The notes under the pieces are model-generated. The model saw only the letters and a program-made list of their open reading frames with translations. It was not told where the DNA came from and made no database searches. Positions 2,949 to 59,364 of a DNA stretch of 64,000 nt are shown here, in pieces (positions within the stretch are counted from its first letter, which is position 1; every line of letters starts with the position of its first letter). Origin of the DNA: a virus; the IMG/VR virus record IMGVR_UViG_3300046660_000385, positions 32,001-96,000 of that record; one strand, written 5' to 3'. The position numbers were made by a program, and so were the translations under genes.

Positions 2949-2971
2949 TATATAGCATGATGCTATATATG
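2949..2971. promoter_or_regulatory. AT-rich perfect palindrome, putative operator between divergent radC and terS
   Basis: TATATAGCAT-G-ATGCTATATA at 2949-2969. Confidence 0.6.
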
Positions 2972-5354: not shown

Positions 5355-5450
5355 TGTTACGGGGCGCAGGCCTGACCTCGACCAGTAACAATAGGATGGT
5401 GTCCCGCCTAGCTTGACACTATGCGTCTGTGGTCTACACTCTAGTGGTAC
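5355..5450 (+). promoter_or_regulatory. Putative res site overlapping the sigma70 promoter of the resolvase
   Basis: Inverted TGT..ACA pairs (TGTTAC 5355 / GTAACA 5385; TGTC 5400 / GACA 5415); TTGACA 5413-5418, 16 nt, TACACT 5435-5440. Confidence 0.6.
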
Positions 5451-5473
5451 ACAACCACCACGGAGGGCAGGCC

Positions 5474-6046
5474 ATGAGCAAGGGACCAGGGAAGCGGATC
5501 GGGTATGTGCGGGTATCGACGACCGACCAGAACACGGAGAGGCAGCTTGACGGGATCGAGCTGGACAAGACGTTCGAGGACAAGTGCAGCGGCAGCACGA
5601 CCAACAGGCCGGCATTGAAGGCGATGCTCGACTACGTGAGGGACGGCGACACGCTCTACGTCCACTCGCTGGACCGCCTGGGCCGCAACCTGCACGACCT
5701 GCTGCTGATGGTGGCCCGCCTGACCGATGACGGCGTGACGGTCATCTTCGTCAAGCAGAACCTGACCTTCTCGGGCGAACCCAACCCGATGAACGACCTG
5801 ATGCTCGGCCTGCTCGGTGCCGTGGCGCAGTTCGAGAGGGCCATGATCCGCGAGCGCCAGGCCGAAGGGATCGCCATCGCCAAGAGGAAGGGCGTGTACA
5901 AGGGCAGGAAGCCCACGCTCGACGACGCCACGGTGCAGGAGCTGCGCCTGCGCGCTGCCGACCCCGCGATCTCCAAGGCCGCGCTGGCCAGGGAGTACGG
6001 CATCAGCCGCATGACCATGTACCGCTACCTCGACGGCCACGCCTAA
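5474..6046 (+). CDS. Small serine recombinase (resolvase/invertase) with C-terminal HTH
   Basis: GYVRVSTTDQN catalytic Ser motif, SLDRLGR, FERAMIRERQAEGIA..AK..G.YKGRKP, HTH ALAREYGISRMTMYRYL. Confidence 0.95.
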   Translation: MSKGPGKRIGYVRVSTTDQNTERQLDGIELDKTFEDKCSGSTTNRPALKAMLDYVRDGDTLYVHSLDRLGRNLHDLLLMVARLTDDGVTVIFVKQNLTFSGEPNPMNDLMLGLLGAVAQFERAMIRERQAEGIAIAKRKGVYKGRKPTLDDATVQELRLRAADPAISKAALAREYGISRMTMYRYLDGHA

Positions 6047-6120: not shown

Positions 6121-6273
6121 CTACGTCCGCTCGTCCCGGCCCGGCTTGACCATTGCCACGTAGGGCCTGAGCGCAGCGGTGTACTCGCCCGGCCTGCGGT
6201 AGTACCGGCTGCGCCAGTGGGCACCGTACAGCTTGCCGGCGTAGTAGCCCTCACGCTGGCGGCGGCTAGTCAT
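6121..6273 (-). CDS. Small basic protein, 50 aa (MTSRRQREGYYAGK...), absent from ORF track
   Basis: Manual translation; start overlaps upstream stop; N-terminus resembles the upstream gene. Confidence 0.55.
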   Translation of the reverse strand: MTSRRQREGYYAGKLYGAHWRSRYYRRPGEYTAALRPYVAMVKPGRDERT

Positions 6274-6526
6274 CGGCATCGGCCCGGTCGATCACCACCT
6301 CGGCGGTCATGCCCTTGCTGCGGTAGCGGATGCGCAGCGGCAGGATCGGCGGCACCGGACTGCGGGCGTTCATGGTCATCCAGGCGATCCCGTTGTCGGG
6401 GAACGGCAGGAAGGGCGGGAACAGCTCCTCACCGCCGACCATCAGGGCAGGCACCAGAGCACGACGACGGACATGCTTGCCGGCCCAGGTGCCGGCGTAC
6501 CGGCCCTCTCTCTGGTTGCGGCTCAT
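6266..6526 (-). CDS. Hypothetical protein (MSRNQREGRYAG...)
   Basis: ATGA overlap with upstream gene. Confidence 0.65.
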   Translation of the reverse strand: MSRNQREGRYAGTWAGKHVRRRALVPALMVGGEELFPPFLPFPDNGIAWMTMNARSPVPPILPLRIRYRSKGMTAEVVIDRADADD

Positions 6527-6780
6527 GGCCATAGCCTCTTGAAGTGGTCGGTGCGGCGGTAGGTCCGTGCCGTCAGGTCGTACGCTGCATTGCCCGGCGC
6601 GTAGTCGAGGTACAGGTTCAGGTCGAGGCTGGCCTGGGGCATCGACAGGCCGAAGAAGTCGACCAGCACGCCACGGTTGATGTTGCCGTAGGTCGCCAGC
6701 ATGCACTCGACGAACTGTAGCCGCATCAGCAGGGCAGGGCGCAGGGTCGACAGCTCCGCCAACGGTGTGGTCCTGCTCAT
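6523..6780 (-). CDS. Stand-alone winged-HTH protein resembling the N-terminal domain of CapW-type WYL regulators
   Basis: RLQFVE...G.INR..LVDFFGLSMPQASLDL..Y...APGN..YD...RTY.....FK pattern; no WYL domain follows. Confidence 0.8.
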   Translation of the reverse strand: MSRTTPLAELSTLRPALLMRLQFVECMLATYGNINRGVLVDFFGLSMPQASLDLNLYLDYAPGNAAYDLTARTYRRTDHFKRLWP

Positions 6781-6965
6781 TCCGGTGTCCTCGGTTCGGC
6801 GTGGAACGTGTGCTTGCAGTGCGGGCAGGTGTAGACCACCAGGTTAAAGAACGGCATGACCTCGGCAGCATCGGGATGGCTCCACTGGTAGTGGTCCCGT
6901 TCCTCGTGCTGCATCGGCTGCTCCGGCGTGCAGAAGCGGCGTGGCAGGGCGCTGTAGTACATCAT
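6777..6965 (-). CDS. Small protein with CPHC motif, possible Zn ribbon
   Basis: MMYYSALP...YTCPHCKHTF; overlapping start/stop chain. Confidence 0.65.
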   Translation of the reverse strand: MMYYSALPRRFCTPEQPMQHEERDHYQWSHPDAAEVMPFFNLVVYTCPHCKHTFHAEPRTPE

Positions 6966-7219
6966 CCCTCGTCCTCGTCGCCGCCCCGCTTGACCACCCA
7001 CTCGGCCCGGCCAACGTACTCCATGTCGTCCCAGGTGGCGCGGTAGTAGGCCTGTCCTCCCAGCTGGCCGTTCTCGCCGGTCATCTGGACGTAGCCCTGC
7101 GCTCCCCACGGCTTCGGCTCGGTGACGGTCATCATGCAGCAGGCGAACATCGGGTTGCCGACGTCGGGCGAGAGTTGGACCACATCGCCCTCCTTGAGCT
7201 GGCGTTCGTCCGGCGTCAT
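6962..7219 (-). CDS. Hypothetical phage protein (MTPDERQLKEGDVVQL...)
   Basis: ATGA coupling; GC3-rich codons. Confidence 0.75.
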   Translation of the reverse strand: MTPDERQLKEGDVVQLSPDVGNPMFACCMMTVTEPKPWGAQGYVQMTGENGQLGGQAYYRATWDDMEYVGRAEWVVKRGGDEDEG

Positions 7220-7455
7220 GCGGTGCGCTCCTTGAGCGCGACGATCACATCTGACAGCACGCTGTGCAGCCACTTGATCTCCAGCCGCGGGTCGATGTCG
7301 AACAGGTCGACCAACCCCGACTTCGCACCGCGCTCGTCCAGCGTGGCTTGCAGGTGGCGGATGATGTCGGCGTCGGTCCTCAGATACATCTTGGCCGTCC
7401 ATTCCCGCAGTGCGGCGATCCTCTCGGGGGTGATCTCGATGTCAAGGTCGGTCAT
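7216..7455 (-). CDS. Hypothetical protein, 79 aa
   Basis: ORF in coupled leftward operon. Confidence 0.7.
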   Translation of the reverse strand: MTDLDIEITPERIAALREWTAKMYLRTDADIIRHLQATLDERGAKSGLVDLFDIDPRLEIKWLHSVLSDVIVALKERTA

Positions 7456-7458
7456 GGT

Positions 7459-7596
7459 CTAACTCCAGATAGTGTAGAGGCCGCCGATCATGCCGATGAT
7501 GCACAGCACACCATAGACAGGTTCGGCGAAGGCAATCGCGCAGCAGGCTGCGCAGCAGGCCACGCTGGCGATGGCGCGGGCGGTCGGGTTGCTCAT
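7459..7596 (-). CDS. Small Cys-rich membrane peptide, 45 aa (MSNPTARAIASVACCAACC...)
   Basis: Manual translation; ATGA overlap; hydrophobic. Confidence 0.55.
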   Translation of the reverse strand: MSNPTARAIASVACCAACCAIAFAEPVYGVLCIIGMIGGLYTIWS

Positions 7597-7880
7597 GGCC
7601 GGATACCTCGCACTGGCTGGTCGTCGAACGGGATCGGCTTGCCCACCTCGGCCTCGTCGAGACGGCGGATCGGCACGAACACGTCGAAGTGCTGCTCGTC
7701 CTCGGGGTGCCTGATCGCTTCGAGGAACACGTTGGCGAACTTGGTGCGCCAGTGGATGAACACGCCGCGCTCATCGTTCCAGCGTGCGACGGTGGCATTG
7801 CGGCAGCGCCCCTCATAGTAGGCGCCGTCGACCAGATCGGCCCTGGCGATGATGGTGCGGGTAGCGTGGGGGTGAATCAT
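7593..7880 (-). CDS. Hypothetical phage protein (MIHPHATR...YYEGRCRNATVARW)
   Basis: ATGA coupling with the HAD gene. Confidence 0.75.
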   Translation of the reverse strand: MIHPHATRTIIARADLVDGAYYEGRCRNATVARWNDERGVFIHWRTKFANVFLEAIRHPEDEQHFDVFVPIRRLDEAEVGKPIPFDDQPVRGIRP

Positions 7881-8341
7881 TCGCGGCACTCCGGGTCGAG
7901 CAGGTGGCGCAGCTGGCGGTAGTCGCTCAGGCTGACGCCCCGCTGGGGGTTGGTCTGGACGAAGCGCGCCGCGAGTTCGGGATGGCCGTCGCAGATCGCC
8001 ACGTCGTCGACGATGGCGAACGTCGTCACCTCGGGATGCTCGGCGAGCCAGGCCGCGATCTCGCTGCCCCGCGTGTCGTAGCTGCCGTGGTCCGGCGTCT
8101 CGTCGATCACCGGCAAGTCCAGCGCCTCGGCAACGACGCCCGGACGGTGGTAGATGCGCCAGGTCGAGGACAGGACGATCACCGTCTCGGTCACACGGCA
8201 CAACCTGCGGATCAGCCCCAGGGCAACGTGGTCGAACTTGGGCATGTCGGCCTCTGAGAAGTCGTGCGGGTAGCCGCCCAGCGCCATGCTGCTGCGGTCG
8301 CTATTGACCACGCCGTCGATGTCGAAGAACAGGACCTTCAT
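7877..8341 (-). CDS. HAD-superfamily phosphatase, Swiss-army-knife RNA-repair type
   Basis: VLFFDIDGVVN (DxD), IVLSSTWR, RGSEIAAWL, FAIVDD. Confidence 0.88.
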   Translation of the reverse strand: MKVLFFDIDGVVNSDRSSMALGGYPHDFSEADMPKFDHVALGLIRRLCRVTETVIVLSSTWRIYHRPGVVAEALDLPVIDETPDHGSYDTRGSEIAAWLAEHPEVTTFAIVDDVAICDGHPELAARFVQTNPQRGVSLSDYRQLRHLLDPECRE

Positions 8342-9246
8342 CGCTGACTCCCGACCAACTGCATGCGCTCGACGAAGTCAGGTCTGGCACGGCAGTACAG
8401 CTGGCCGGTCTGCGCGTCGCGGTACACGACCAGATCGGCATGGTCACGCATGGTGCCCGCGCCCTTGGCCTGGCCGATCAGTTCGTACTCGCCGCCCTTG
8501 CCGATGCAGGTATAGACCAGAGTCGGGTAGGCGTTCAGCCGGCGCGCGATCTCCTGGGCGTGGGCGATCTCGCGCTCGTCCGAGTCGAAGTGGCCGTAGA
8601 CCTCCAGCGCCACAGTGAAGGTGGAATCGCCGGATTGGATCACGATCCGGCCCTGGCCCCAGTGGTCGACCGTCCACGGACCCTTTTCCGTGACAGTCAC
8701 GGATTCAGCGGAAGCGGTGTCGAACCACCAGTCGAACGCCGACAGCAGGTCGTGGGCAGTGAGCTGGAAGCGCACCCGGTCGGGCTGCTCGTGATACTCG
8801 ATCACCTCGCACTGGTTGCCGATGAAGGCGATCGCCTGTTCCGGCGTGCTCGGGATCGCCGGCCTCGCCGCCATGCGCTCGCGCAGCTCCATGCACTCCT
8901 TCGACTTCGACGCGGCGCGGGTCTCGGCCAGGTCGGCACGCAGCTTCTCGGCAGCGAGCTGGCGGTGCAGGGCGGTGATCTCGTCGTCGGCGCTCAGCGC
9001 GGTTCCCCAGCAGGTCCTGTCGATCTCGGCTGCGATCTCGGCGTGGGTCTTGGCAGGGTAGGCCCGCACCATGTTGACGTGAAAGGCAGCGCGCAACTGG
9101 CGCAGCTTCGTCAGCAGCGCCTCGGACACGAACATCGGCGGCACCCTCTCGTCGATCACGCCGGCCTCGACCAGCTCCTGGCGAACCATGTCCATGCAGT
9201 CGGCCATGCCCTGCAGTGTGAGTTCAGTTTCTTTATCGCTATTCAT
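8338..9246 (-). CDS. Mosaic phage accessory protein with coiled coil and DUF1653-like C-terminus
   Basis: Real part of ORF 8338..12012 from MNSDKETEL; C-terminal KGGEYELIG...LVVYRD..TGQLYCR...F. Confidence 0.75.
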   Translation of the reverse strand: MNSDKETELTLQGMADCMDMVRQELVEAGVIDERVPPMFVSEALLTKLRQLRAAFHVNMVRAYPAKTHAEIAAEIDRTCWGTALSADDEITALHRQLAAEKLRADLAETRAASKSKECMELRERMAARPAIPSTPEQAIAFIGNQCEVIEYHEQPDRVRFQLTAHDLLSAFDWWFDTASAESVTVTEKGPWTVDHWGQGRIVIQSGDSTFTVALEVYGHFDSDEREIAHAQEIARRLNAYPTLVYTCIGKGGEYELIGQAKGAGTMRDHADLVVYRDAQTGQLYCRARPDFVERMQLVGSQR

Positions 9247-9252
9247 CACGCC

Positions 9253-9282
9253 AGTTTGTCGCGTGGTGTTACCACCTGTCAA
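9253..9282 (-). promoter_or_regulatory. Putative leftward sigma70 promoter giving a leaderless transcript
   Basis: TTGACA (9282-9277), 18 nt, CAAACT (9258-9253), 6 nt before ATG 9246; no SD. Confidence 0.45.
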
Positions 9283-9300: not shown

Positions 9301-9573
9301 ATGAAGAAGTTCGTCAAGCCCGTGGCCAAGCCAGAACAGGTGCCGTCGATGAACCCGCCGCCGATGCCGGTCAAGGCTGCGCGTCCGCCGGCGGTGCCGC
9401 CCGTCTCGCCGAAGATCCCGGCCGGTCCGTCGCCGATGGCGCGCCCGCCGGTGCCCAAGACCAGCCGCCAGGTGCCCAGCGTGCCGACCGCCCGCGGCGT
9501 GGTGCGCACCGACACCCACAACCAGGTCAACCAGGTCCCGGCCCACGCCAAGCACAAGGGCCGGGGTGTGTGA
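9301..9573 (+). CDS. Small Pro/Lys-rich protein
   Basis: MKKFVKPVAKP...; GGAG RBS. Confidence 0.65.
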   Translation: MKKFVKPVAKPEQVPSMNPPPMPVKAARPPAVPPVSPKIPAGPSPMARPPVPKTSRQVPSVPTARGVVRTDTHNQVNQVPAHAKHKGRGV

Positions 9574-58911: not shown

Positions 58912-59345
58912 TGGGGCAGGCGCTCGAACTGGCCCTGCGCCTGATCCGCACGTTTGAAGGGTGCCGGCTGCGCGCGTACCGCGACGTGGTCGGGATTCTG
59001 ACGATCTGCTGGGGATCGACCAGGGGCGTGAAGGAAGGGGAGGTGCGCACGCAGACCCAGTGCGACATGCTGCTGGCCAGCGAGGCGGGCGGCTTCATGC
59101 TCAAGGTCCTGCAGCTGTGCCCGGAGCTGGCGCCGTACCCGGCCCGGCTCGCGGCCGTGACCAGCTTTGCGTACAATTTGGGCCTCGGGTCGCTCTCGGC
59201 CAGCACGCTCAGGCGCAAAATACGGCGCCTGGACTGGGATGGCGCGGCCGCGGAGTTCCCGAAGTGGCGCTTCGCCGGCGGGCGCGCGATCCGCGGCCTG
59301 GTGATCCGCCGCGCGTTGGAGAGGAAAACGTTCGAGGGGGCGTGA
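58908..59345 (+). CDS. Endolysin, GH24 lysozyme
   Basis: FEGCRLRAYRDVVGILTICWG (E-8-D-5-T triad), SFAYNLG, STL, GLVIRRALE. Confidence 0.93.
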   Translation: MMGQALELALRLIRTFEGCRLRAYRDVVGILTICWGSTRGVKEGEVRTQTQCDMLLASEAGGFMLKVLQLCPELAPYPARLAAVTSFAYNLGLGSLSASTLRRKIRRLDWDGAAAEFPKWRFAGGRAIRGLVIRRALERKTFEGA

Positions 59346-59364
59346 TACTATCACGCCGCAATAC

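What the first reader, a model, noticed from the sequence alone, without database searches (positions are those of the whole stretch)
6523..6780. Phage-encoded CapW-like winged HTH lacking the WYL sensor: candidate super-repressor of host defence operons
Seen: a complete, translationally coupled 85-aa gene with the pattern RLQFVE...GNINR..LVDFFGLSMPQASLDL..YLDYAPGN..YD...RTY, ending right after this domain. Established: CapW/BrxR-type wHTH-WYL-WCX repressors control CBASS, BREX and other defence loci, and the WYL domain is the ligand sensor. Inference: a sensor-less DNA-binding domain could occupy such operators regardless of signal and keep defences off, or it could regulate phage promoters. 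Loss of the WCX dimerisation domain is a caveat.
Basis: partly seen in the sequence, partly recalled or inferred. Interest (0 to 1): 0.72.

Follow-up and report, generated by a model that had tools for sequence, protein, structure and literature searches.

The report
Phage stand-alone CapW/BrxR-type winged helix
A small gene of an uncultured phage encodes only the DNA-binding part of the bacterial repressors that control anti-phage defence genes. It belongs to an undescribed family, so far seen only in phages, that seems to have rebuilt itself to work without the sensor part.

Summary
Window 6523-6780 (-) is a real 85-aa gene, start and stop both in ATGA overlaps. It matches the N-terminal winged helix of solved CapW (7TB5, E=2e-14, 47% identity) and ends where full-length proteins continue into the linker.

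It is not a truncated remnant. No WYL/WCX trace lies downstream, and 9 of 9 viral loci stop at the same point.

Stand-alone proteins differ from full-length regulators at fixed columns. Column 30 is Trp in 40 of 40 full-length proteins and in 0 of 58 stand-alone ones. All DNA-contact residues tested in CapW/BrxR are kept. The changed columns coincide with a predicted homodimer interface (score 0.67, best control 0.03).

In 400 bacterial genomes, 47 of 48 matches lay in full-length frames and one was a split gene. Every phage copy examined lacks the WYL and WCX domains.

Molecular reading (about 0.8): a ligand-blind, self-dimerising DNA-binding regulator.

Four literature searches found no description.

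The scan had noted this same stretch once before (e1-6163176).

The parts
6523..6780 (-). 85-aa stand-alone CapW/BrxR-type winged-helix gene. Predicted helices are 15-31, 36-43 and 47-60 (recognition helix); the beta-hairpin wing is 65-76.
   Evidence: ORF. PDB sequence matches. AlphaFold2 model with mean pLDDT 90.6. Foldseek top hits are 7TB5 and 7TB6 CapW at rmsd 0.6-0.7 A over 70-72 columns, then BrxR 7QFZ and 7T8K.
6788..6792 (-). Shine-Dalgarno-like GAGGA, 7 nt before the ATG, inside the end of the upstream gene.
   Evidence: Read from the sequence.
6121..9246 (-). Ten-gene operon of small genes that holds the winged-helix gene as its eighth gene. Most junctions read are 4-nt overlaps. 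Genes: 9246-8338 (302 aa), 8341-7877 (HAD_SAK_2 phosphatase-like), 7880-7593, 7596-7459, 7455-7216, 7219-6962 (phrog_19062), 6965-6777 (Cys-rich 62 aa), 6780-6523 (winged helix), 6532-6266, 6279-6121.
   Evidence: Peptide starts and frame-specific GC3. Family hits.
9277..9282 (-). TTGACA, the likely -35 box of the operon promoter, in the 54-bp gap between the operon and the divergent plus-strand gene that starts at 9301. It is identical in loci L004 and L006.
   Evidence: My own reading; the consensus scan did not list it.
6266..6532 (-). Downstream 88-aa gene. It is not a WYL remnant. It is one of two tandem small basic genes that share an N-terminal SRNQREGRYAG-type motif.
   Evidence: No Pfam, NCBIfam, PADLOC or PDB sequence hit. 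Low-confidence mostly-beta model with pLDDT 60 and best structural Z of 3.0, with no WYL chain listed. Motif family.

Best explanation
The gene makes a protein that is only the winged helix of the CapW/BrxR repressor family. It belongs to a separate subfamily, found here only in phage DNA, that stops right after the wing.

This subfamily keeps the residues that touch DNA in CapW and BrxR. It has replaced a charged and aromatic surface of the full-length proteins (R27, W30, E31, D38 in window numbering) by hydrophobic residues (L/M27, Y31, V/A38, Y42). These residues are predicted to pack two copies directly against each other.

The protein would therefore bind a palindromic site as a dimer. 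Having no WYL sensor, it cannot be released by single-stranded DNA, so it would be a constitutive transcription regulator, most likely a repressor. It is made from an accessory operon of the phage.

Shown: the homology, the fold, the conserved end point, the signature columns, the absence of WYL/WCX, and the phage-only occurrence in the samples searched. Inferred: the dimer, DNA binding, and repression.

My committed reading of the target is the phage's own promoters, as a regulator of its infection programme. The molecular part alone I hold at about 0.8. The figure below is for the molecular part plus this target.
For: Homology and fold.

DNA-contact residues are kept:
- Sm CapW R32 and S42/Q45/S47, whose mutation eliminated detectable DNA binding (passages of PMC9122588), align with window R36, S46, Q49 and S51.
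- BrxR(E. fergusonii) R17, essential for binding and repression (passages of PMC9122601), and BrxR(Acinetobacter) R11, K64 and Y66 (passages of PMC9122589) align with R20, R72 and Y74.
- In stand-alone proteins these columns read R20 57 of 57, R36 59 of 60, S46 53 of 60, Q49 50 of 60, S51 44 of 60, K/R72 60 of 60 and Y74 56 of 60.

Not a remnant:
- 8 of 8 near-length homologues (7 ending at RLWP, 1 with six more residues) and 9 of 9 IMG/VR loci end within 6 residues of the same motif. In 8 of those 9 loci the stop overlaps the next ATG, although the downstream genes differ.
- tblastn with 37 full-length proteins found only the winged-helix part.

Separate subfamily:
- Of the 158 proteins in hand, 65 end with the domain.
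- In a tree of 103 rows, 39 of 40 full-length rows fall in one cluster (SH-aLRT 86) and 58 of 63 stand-alone rows fall outside it. The label needs 7 changes against 32 in shuffles.

Dimer: complex prediction with two copies scored 0.67 against a best control of 0.03. That mark was reached by 20 of 30 proteins solved as pairs of one chain and by 1 of 23 solved as single chains. Contacts agreed 100% between runs and pLDDT was at least 89. The interface is 22-23, 26, 29-31, 37-38 and 41-42, and it takes in signature columns 22, 30, 31, 38 and 42. The pass may partly reflect likeness to solved CapW/BrxR dimers.

Phage restriction:
- 400 genomes of one bacterial class gave 48 matches in 46 genomes. 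47 lay in open frames of 272-428 aa. One lay in a 92-aa frame followed directly by a 199-aa WYL-bearing ORF, that is, a split gene.
- ESM Atlas clusters of 85-96 aa named WHD_BrxR were 57-69% viral among members of known taxon.

Phage-directed target:
- The group has its own history and its own interface.
- One member (P0016) fuses a CI/Cro-type HTH (PF01381 1.7e-13, Phage_CI_repr 4.3e-10) to this domain.
- No sampled host regulator shares its recognition helix.
Against: - I found no repeated operator for it. The operon's own promoter holds only a 12-bp imperfect palindrome, which is weaker still in L006.
- The perfect palindromes of the genome are mostly single and unrelated to each other.
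- The gene has no promoter of its own.
- Its neighbours vary between loci.
- It is rare and scattered among unrelated cultured phages: 7 records of 50,697, from 5 phages.

This is easier to square with a function that acts on the host than with control of lineage-specific phage promoters. DNA binding, the dimer and repression are all untested. The tree rests on 73 columns, and most forks are unresolved.
Confidence: 0.45

Rival explanations
1. The molecule is the same, but the target is the host. The ligand-blind dimer sits on operators of host CapW/BrxR-type repressors and keeps CBASS, BREX or other defence operons shut when single-stranded DNA would release the host's own repressor.
For: - The only cellular relatives found are full-length regulators of this family. 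One example sits divergently from a CBASS operon in Caballeronia pedi.
- The stand-alone form was found only in phage DNA, including lytic isolates that infect genera with known CapW or BrxR.
- The column aligned with the base-reading R38 of Acinetobacter BrxR (window M47) varies within the closest clade: M, M, M, M, V, E, T, T.
- The operon context has a counter-defence flavour: an RNA-repair-type HAD phosphatase (HAD_SAK_2, E=1e-25), and in the related locus L006 a Lar restriction-alleviation domain on the first gene (2.1e-8).
- The gene travels without its own promoter or operator.
- Induced BREX expression is reported to matter against later infections (abstract of bioRxiv 10.1101/2025.11.13.688357).
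Against: - The stand-alone proteins are one old group, not repeated captures from hosts.
- Identity to any full-length protein is at most 47%.
- The best match over the recognition helix is 10 of 17 positions among 40 full-length proteins.
- The Sonora copy scores higher against P. aeruginosa CapW (58.3 bits) than against S. maltophilia CapW (52.4 bits).
- The predicted dimer uses a new interface, so half-site spacing may differ from CapW operators.
- WYL repressors are reported to act without crosstalk.
- CapW-dependent induction was not needed for protection in the E. coli system (introduction passage of PMC9122588).
Confidence: 0.28
2. A DNA-binding protein with some role other than promoter control, for example coating or organising phage or host DNA, or marking a site for replication or packaging.
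For: - Its position close to the terminase genes is conserved in the related loci L004-L008 and L010.
- It is followed by tandem small Arg-rich genes.
- No operator was found.
Against: - The kept residues are those of sequence-specific repressors.
- terS and terL are separate genes on the other strand.
- Distant carriers lack the terminase neighbourhood.
Confidence: 0.1
3. A poison subunit. It binds host CapW/BrxR protein, either a winged helix or the WYL domain that normally packs on it, and disturbs that regulator.
For: In full-length dimers each WYL domain packs on the winged helix of the other chain (passages of PMC9122588).
Against: - The surface that differs most from full-length proteins is exactly the non-DNA face, and W30 is lost in 58 of 58 stand-alone proteins.
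- Releasing a repressor would raise defence expression, which is bad for a lytic phage.
- Not tested by any fold here.
Confidence: 0.05
4. A recent pseudogene fragment of a captured full-length capW/brxR gene.
For: Such split genes exist in bacteria: locus L033 has a 91-aa piece followed by a 199-aa WYL-bearing piece.
Against: - There is no WYL/WCX trace anywhere in the window. The best such hit is E=0.014, and none is adjacent.
- The end point is conserved in 9 of 9 viral loci.
- The gene has coding composition and coupled translation.
Confidence: 0.02

Closest known systems
CapW, the wHTH-WYL-WCX repressor of CBASS operons (P. aeruginosa PA17 7TB5, S. maltophilia 7TB6, R. leguminosarum 9C5G)
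   Same: The N-terminal winged helix. Identity is 47% and 42% at rmsd 0.6-0.7 A. The SxPQASxD recognition helix is shared, as are the CapW-type Arg (R36) and the wing residues.
   Different: It has no linker helices, WYL or WCX domain and so no single-stranded-DNA sensor. It lacks the Trp that was invariant in the 40 full-length proteins compared, and the charged residues on the non-DNA face. It is encoded inside a phage operon rather than divergently from a defence operon.
BrxR, the WYL regulator of BREX and defence islands (E. fergusonii 7QFZ, Acinetobacter 7T8K/7T8L)
   Same: The same fold, at 26-29% identity and rmsd 0.8-1.0 A. The backbone-contact Arg (R20) and the wing Lys/Arg and Tyr are conserved. 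Pfam names the domain after it: WHD_BrxR, PF26109.
   Different: The base-reading SRQQ motif of Acinetobacter BrxR is SMPQ here. All parts after residue 85 are missing.
Uncharacterised stand-alone homologues in cultured phages: Stenotrophomonas phage Sonora CPT_Sonora_088 (75 aa), Pantoea phages LIET2 and Nafs113 (97 aa), Yersinia phage fHe-Yen9-02 (110 aa)
   Same: Small genes in arrays of small early or accessory genes, all annotated as hypothetical. The Sonora copy ends at the same point, with the motif FKRVYP.
   Different: The Pantoea and Yersinia proteins keep the first linker helix after the wing. That is a second kind of truncation.
Aca-type HTH autorepressors of phage anti-defence operons (recalled from memory, no call)
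   Same: A small DNA-binding protein encoded within a phage accessory operon.
   Different: The fold family is different. No operator was found in the operon's own promoter. The gene is eighth of ten, not at an end of the operon.

Membership tests
CapW/BrxR winged-helix domain (Pfam WHD_BrxR, PF26109) | Significant sequence match to the N-terminal domain of solved CapW/BrxR proteins | tested here: met
   E=2e-14 to 7TB5 with the single sequence and 1.4e-18 with the profile. All five PDB hits are CapW or BrxR.
CapW/BrxR winged-helix domain (Pfam WHD_BrxR, PF26109) | Hit to the Pfam model itself | tested here: inconclusive
   The local Pfam copy lacks PF26109 and gave no hit. Precomputed annotation lists PF26109 for 8 of 8 near-length homologues, including this protein. 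The ESM Atlas names the nearest clusters WHD_BrxR.
CapW/BrxR winged-helix domain (Pfam WHD_BrxR, PF26109) | Three-helix bundle plus beta-hairpin wing that superposes on solved members | tested here: met
   Model pLDDT 90.6. The 12 best Foldseek PDB rows are all CapW or BrxR, with TM-score on the query of 0.71-0.86. The next hit has E=0.033.
CapW/BrxR winged-helix domain (Pfam WHD_BrxR, PF26109) | DNA-contact residues shown by mutagenesis or by the DNA complex | tested here: met
   R20, R36, S46, Q49, S51, R72 and Y74 are present and conserved in the subfamily.
wHTH-WYL-WCX repressors (CapW/BrxR proper) | WYL ligand-sensing domain | tested here: not met
   The protein ends at residue 85. No WYL was found in the downstream gene or elsewhere in the window by sequence. 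The fold of the downstream gene was of low confidence, and no WYL chain was listed.
wHTH-WYL-WCX repressors (CapW/BrxR proper) | WCX dimerisation domain and linker helices | tested here: not met
   Absent.
wHTH-WYL-WCX repressors (CapW/BrxR proper) | Invariant Trp at column 30, with R/K27, D/E31 and D38 on the non-DNA face | tested here: not met
   Trp is present in 40 of 40 full-length and 0 of 58 stand-alone proteins. The window protein has T30, M27, Y31 and V38.
wHTH-WYL-WCX repressors (CapW/BrxR proper) | Encoded beside, usually divergently from, the defence operon it controls | tested here: not met
   It is the eighth gene of a phage operon. Compare the CapW-CBASS locus L014.
wHTH-WYL-WCX repressors (CapW/BrxR proper) | Homodimer that binds a palindrome of about 20 bp overlapping a promoter | not testable with these tools
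   Only a predicted homodimer is available. No binding site was identified.
Aca-like autorepressor (works-like comparison only) | Operator palindrome in the promoter of its own operon | tested here: inconclusive

The most novel reading that the evidence does not exclude
Phages carry a dedicated family of sensor-less, self-dimerising copies of the defence-repressor DNA-binding domain. These copies occupy host CapW/BrxR-type operators. Defence islands would then stay transcriptionally silent even when the host's own repressor is released by the damage signal. That would be an anti-defence strategy acting on immune-gene regulation rather than on immune proteins.
Probability: 0.28. Interest if true: 0.85.

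Novelty: new variant of a known kind. Interest (0 to 1): 0.57.

Why it matters
CapW and BrxR-type repressors set the expression level of CBASS, BREX and other defence loci. Recent work suggests that their release primes cells against phages that carry inhibitors.

Two cases would make this family matter:
- If it binds the same kind of operators, it would be the first example of a phage counter-measure aimed at that regulatory layer. It can be tested directly in the cultured Stenotrophomonas phage Sonora.
- If it regulates phage genes instead, it shows how a sensor-controlled regulator domain was turned into an autonomous dimer by a handful of surface changes. It would also give a compact, ligand-independent DNA-binding module.

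In both cases dozens of 'hypothetical' phage proteins gain a name and a testable function.

Tried and rejected
1. WYL remnant. The downstream 88-aa gene has no Pfam, NCBIfam, PADLOC or PDB sequence hit. tblastn with 37 full-length proteins gave no WYL/WCX hit better than E=0.014, and none adjacent. Its AlphaFold2 model was poor (pLDDT 60). VIA-align against 48,161 chains gave a best Z of 3.0 with no WYL chain among 10 rows. This is inconclusive as a fold test.

2. The local Pfam, PHROGs, NCBIfam and PADLOC libraries gave 0 hits for the 85-aa protein. The Pfam copy lacks PF26109.

3. The word-index search for longer relatives found none among 140 candidates. The exhaustive search then found them.

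4. Gene-fusion idea. Two family members carry an N-terminal Cys-rich segment, and the window has a Cys-rich 62-aa gene just upstream. BLASTP found no likeness (E=0.34 and 1.1), so I dropped the idea.

5. Host-mimicry test. The best full-length match over the recognition helix is 10 of 17 positions. The Sonora copy is not closest to its host species' CapW.

6. Operator hunt.
- The operon promoter has only a weak 12-bp palindrome.
- The 21-bp perfect palindrome at 2949-2969 is conserved in L004, L006 and L007 and partly in L008.
- A 23-bp palindrome family with 6 copies has T-runs after two copies and may be made of RNA hairpins.

7. My script for operators of bacterial CapW loci found the gene in only 6 of 21 loci, and I did not pursue it.

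8. The consensus promoter and terminator scan gave nothing useful.

9. The terminase search found no close cultured relative, so the host remains unknown.

10. Literature. Searches, plus passages of PMC9122588, PMC9122589, PMC9122601, PMC11662680, PMC12839542 and bioRxiv 10.1101/2025.11.13.688357, gave no mention of phage-encoded stand-alone winged helices of this family. The supplements, which hold homologue tables and operator sequences, were closed and may bear on this.

Full report
**What is there**

Its ATG overlaps the stop of a 62-aa Cys-rich gene. Its TGA overlaps an ATG of the next gene. A GAGGA lies 7 nt upstream. Codon-position GC is 0.58/0.45/0.88, as in real genes of this 67% GC genome.

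The window is part of a 117,858-bp IMG/VR virus record that CheckV rates complete. Its terminase has no close cultured relative, so the host is unknown.

The gene is the eighth of ten small genes, most junctions overlapping by 4 nt, running from 9246 down to 6121. The operon is read from a gap of 54 bp that holds a TTGACA box conserved in two related phage contigs. It includes a HAD_SAK_2 phosphatase-like gene (E=1e-25). In the related locus L006 the first gene carries a Lar restriction-alleviation domain (E=2.1e-8).

**What the protein is**

The local Pfam, PHROGs, NCBIfam and PADLOC libraries gave nothing. The reason is that the local Pfam copy lacks the model. Precomputed annotation assigns PF26109 to this protein and to all 7 near-length relatives, and the ESM Atlas gives that model's name as WHD_BrxR.

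Against PDB sequences the only hits are CapW and BrxR:
- 7TB5, E=2e-14, residues 19-85 on 26-92;
- 7TB6, 6.9e-10;
- 9C5G, 5e-7;
- 7QFZ, 0.014;
- 7T8K, 0.17. A profile gave stronger values.

The AlphaFold2 model (pLDDT 90.6) superposes on CapW at 0.6-0.7 A over 70-72 columns. The 12 best Foldseek rows are all CapW or BrxR.

**DNA-binding residues**

- In S. maltophilia CapW, R32A and S42A/Q45A/S47A eliminated detectable binding to its site in the CBASS promoter. The equivalent E. coli CapW mutants also lost binding and derepressed a GFP reporter (passages of PMC9122588). These residues align with window R36, S46, Q49 and S51.
- E. fergusonii BrxR R17 is essential for binding and repression (passages of PMC9122601). 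It aligns with R20, as does Acinetobacter BrxR R11. The Acinetobacter wing contacts K64 and Y66 align with R72 and Y74 (passages of PMC9122589; alignment).
- The base-reading R38 of Acinetobacter BrxR aligns with M47. That column varies even within the closest clade.

**Not a remnant**

- The 8 near-length homologues all end at the RLWP motif; one has six further residues.
- Nine of nine IMG/VR loci end within 4 residues of that motif. Eight have the stop overlapping the next start, while the next genes differ.
- tblastn of 37 full-length proteins against the window matched only 6523-6780. The WYL/WCX parts gave nothing better than E=0.014, and nothing adjacent.
- The downstream gene has no sequence hit. 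Its poor model (pLDDT 60) gave no WYL match.

**A separate subfamily**

An exhaustive profile search of 1.84 billion representatives gave 1171 hits at E<=0.001 and 142 at E<=1e-10.

Of the 158 proteins in hand (8 plus the best 150):
- 65 end with the domain;
- 40 are full length (250 aa or more);
- 53 are intermediate, and most of these show the linker helix and look like fragments.

I built a tree from 103 rows: 63 stand-alone and 40 full-length. I left out the 53 intermediates and 2 rows with short coverage. In it, 39 of 40 full-length rows fall in one cluster (SH-aLRT 86), together with 5 short rows that look like fragments. The other 58 stand-alone rows lie outside. The label needs 7 changes against a shuffled mean of 32. 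Only 73 columns were used and 68 of 100 forks are open, so this shows separation but not a rooted history.

Column counts for 60 stand-alone rows (the 5 embedded ones dropped) against 40 full-length rows:

| Column (window numbering) | Full-length | Stand-alone |
|---|---|---|
| 30 | W 40 of 40 | W 0 of 58 (H, Q, N, E) |
| 27 | R/K 35 of 40 | L/M 44 of 58 |
| 31 | E/D 28 of 40 | Y/F 48 of 58 |
| 38 | D 35 of 40 | V/A 37 of 60 |
| 42 | F 15 of 40 | Y 45 of 60 |
| 22 | E 23 of 40 | R 42 of 57 |

The DNA-contact columns are the same in both groups.

**Dimer**

Two copies were predicted to pair with a score of 0.67 (three runs: 0.67, 0.68, 0.67) against a best control of 0.03. That mark was reached by 20 of 30 proteins solved as pairs of one chain and by 1 of 23 solved as single chains. 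Contacts agreed 100% between runs and pLDDT was at least 89. The interface is residues 22-23, 26, 29-31, 37-38 and 41-42.

These residues take in signature columns 22, 30, 31, 38 and 42 above. In solved BrxR the winged helices are described as about 25 A apart, with the dimer core made by the linker helices, WYL and the C-terminal domain (passages of PMC9122601). A direct helix-to-helix contact would therefore be a new way of pairing. The pass may still owe something to likeness with solved dimers. It is a prediction, not a measurement.

**Where the form occurs**

- Cultured phages: 5 records with the window protein as query (Sonora, Nafs113, LIET2 twice, fHe-Yen9-02), plus 2 records of Acinetobacter phage MD-2021a with the Sonora protein as query, out of 50,697 records. 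The five inspected are annotated as hypothetical and sit in arrays of small genes.
- The Pantoea and Yersinia proteins keep the first linker helix.
- In 400 genomes of one bacterial class, 46 had a match, 48 matches in all. 47 lie in open frames of 272-428 aa. The one 92-aa frame is followed directly by a 199-aa ORF with the WYL-type RWHIR motif, so it is a split gene.
- One genome-collection hit (L014, Caballeronia pedi) is a 299-aa CapW placed divergently from a patatin, CD-NTase and E1/E2 CBASS operon.
- In the ESM Atlas, 18 of 30 nearest clusters are WHD_BrxR proteins. The three best have representatives of 85-96 aa and are 57-69% viral where the taxon is known.

**How it most likely works**

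Without WYL and WCX, the single-stranded-DNA signal that pulls the two winged helices of CapW apart (passages of PMC11662680) has nothing to act on. A self-pairing winged helix with intact DNA contacts should sit on its palindrome whatever the state of the cell. I hold this molecular reading at about 0.8.

**The target is open**

For phage promoters (0.45):
- The group is old, limited to phages in the samples searched, and has its own interface.
- One member fuses a CI/Cro-type HTH to it.
- No sampled host regulator shares its recognition helix.
- Most small phage HTH proteins regulate phage genes. This prior is my own knowledge, not from a call.

For host CapW/BrxR-type operators (0.28):
- The only cellular kin are defence regulators.
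- The gene travels without a promoter or operator among unrelated phages.
- Its operon has a counter-defence flavour.
- The base-reading column varies between near relatives.
- Holding induction down could matter, since induced BREX overcomes phage inhibitors in later infections (abstract).

Against the host reading, the same preprint reports no crosstalk between WYL repressors. I found no operator for either reading.

**Novelty**

The domain is catalogued in Pfam. However, four full-text searches and passages of six papers gave no description of a phage-borne stand-alone family, of its signature residues or of a function. The supplements were closed.

I class it as a new variant of a known kind. 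This same stretch was noted once before in the scan (e1-6163176), without follow-up.

Noticed in passing
window 36360-58049 (+): A single open reading frame of 7229 aa, listed together with long antisense frames typical of high GC. If real, it is a giant virion-type gene that takes up a third of the window.
   Followed up: no
window 59337-59359; genome C1 5251, 7254, 103892, 105043, 105857: Six copies of a 23-bp palindrome, GGGGTGTGAT-N3-ATCACACCCC. The window copy shows paired changes in both arms. Two copies are followed by T-runs. Two pairs of copies share about 45 nt of upstream sequence, which points to duplicated modules near both ends of the record.
   Followed up: partly
window 6266-6532 (-) and 6121-6279 (-); L004, L005, L006, L007, L008: Tandem arrays of 2-3 small Arg-rich genes that each begin with an SRNQREGRYAG-type motif and then diverge. 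They lie at the end of the operon, just before the recombinase and terminase genes.
   Followed up: partly
window 7877-8341 (-): A 154-aa gene that matches HAD_SAK_2, the HAD phosphatase domain of 'Swiss Army Knife' RNA-repair proteins (E=1e-25). It is 93-95% identical in L004 and L006.
   Followed up: no
L006 597-1622 (+): In a related phage contig, the first gene of the syntenic operon carries an N-terminal Lar restriction-alleviation zinc ribbon (PF14354, 2.1e-8; phrog_599). The window's copy lacks it.
   Followed up: partly
window 2949-2969: A perfect 21-bp AT-rich palindrome, TATATAGCAT-G-ATGCTATATA, upstream of terS. It is kept with 1-2 changes in L004, L006 and L007 and with 5 changes in L008.
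   Followed up: partly
window 5429-6046 (+): A serine recombinase or resolvase gene, convergent with the operon. It is about 70% identical at DNA level to resolvase genes of Mycobacterium prophages.
   Followed up: no
L033 812-1740 (-): A bacterial capW/brxR-type gene split into a 91-aa winged-helix ORF and a 199-aa WYL-WCX ORF. It is probably a frameshifted gene.
   Followed up: no
L014 about 5869-5901: In the Caballeronia pedi CapW-CBASS intergenic region there is a 27-33-bp palindrome, TATACGCGATT-N5-AATCGCGTATA, about 60 bp before capW. It is a likely operator.
   Followed up: no
protein P0016 (145 aa, metagenome representative): A CI/Cro-type HTH (PF01381 1.7e-13; Phage_CI_repr 4.3e-10) fused in front of the stand-alone winged helix. 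That gives two DNA-binding domains in one small protein.
   Followed up: no
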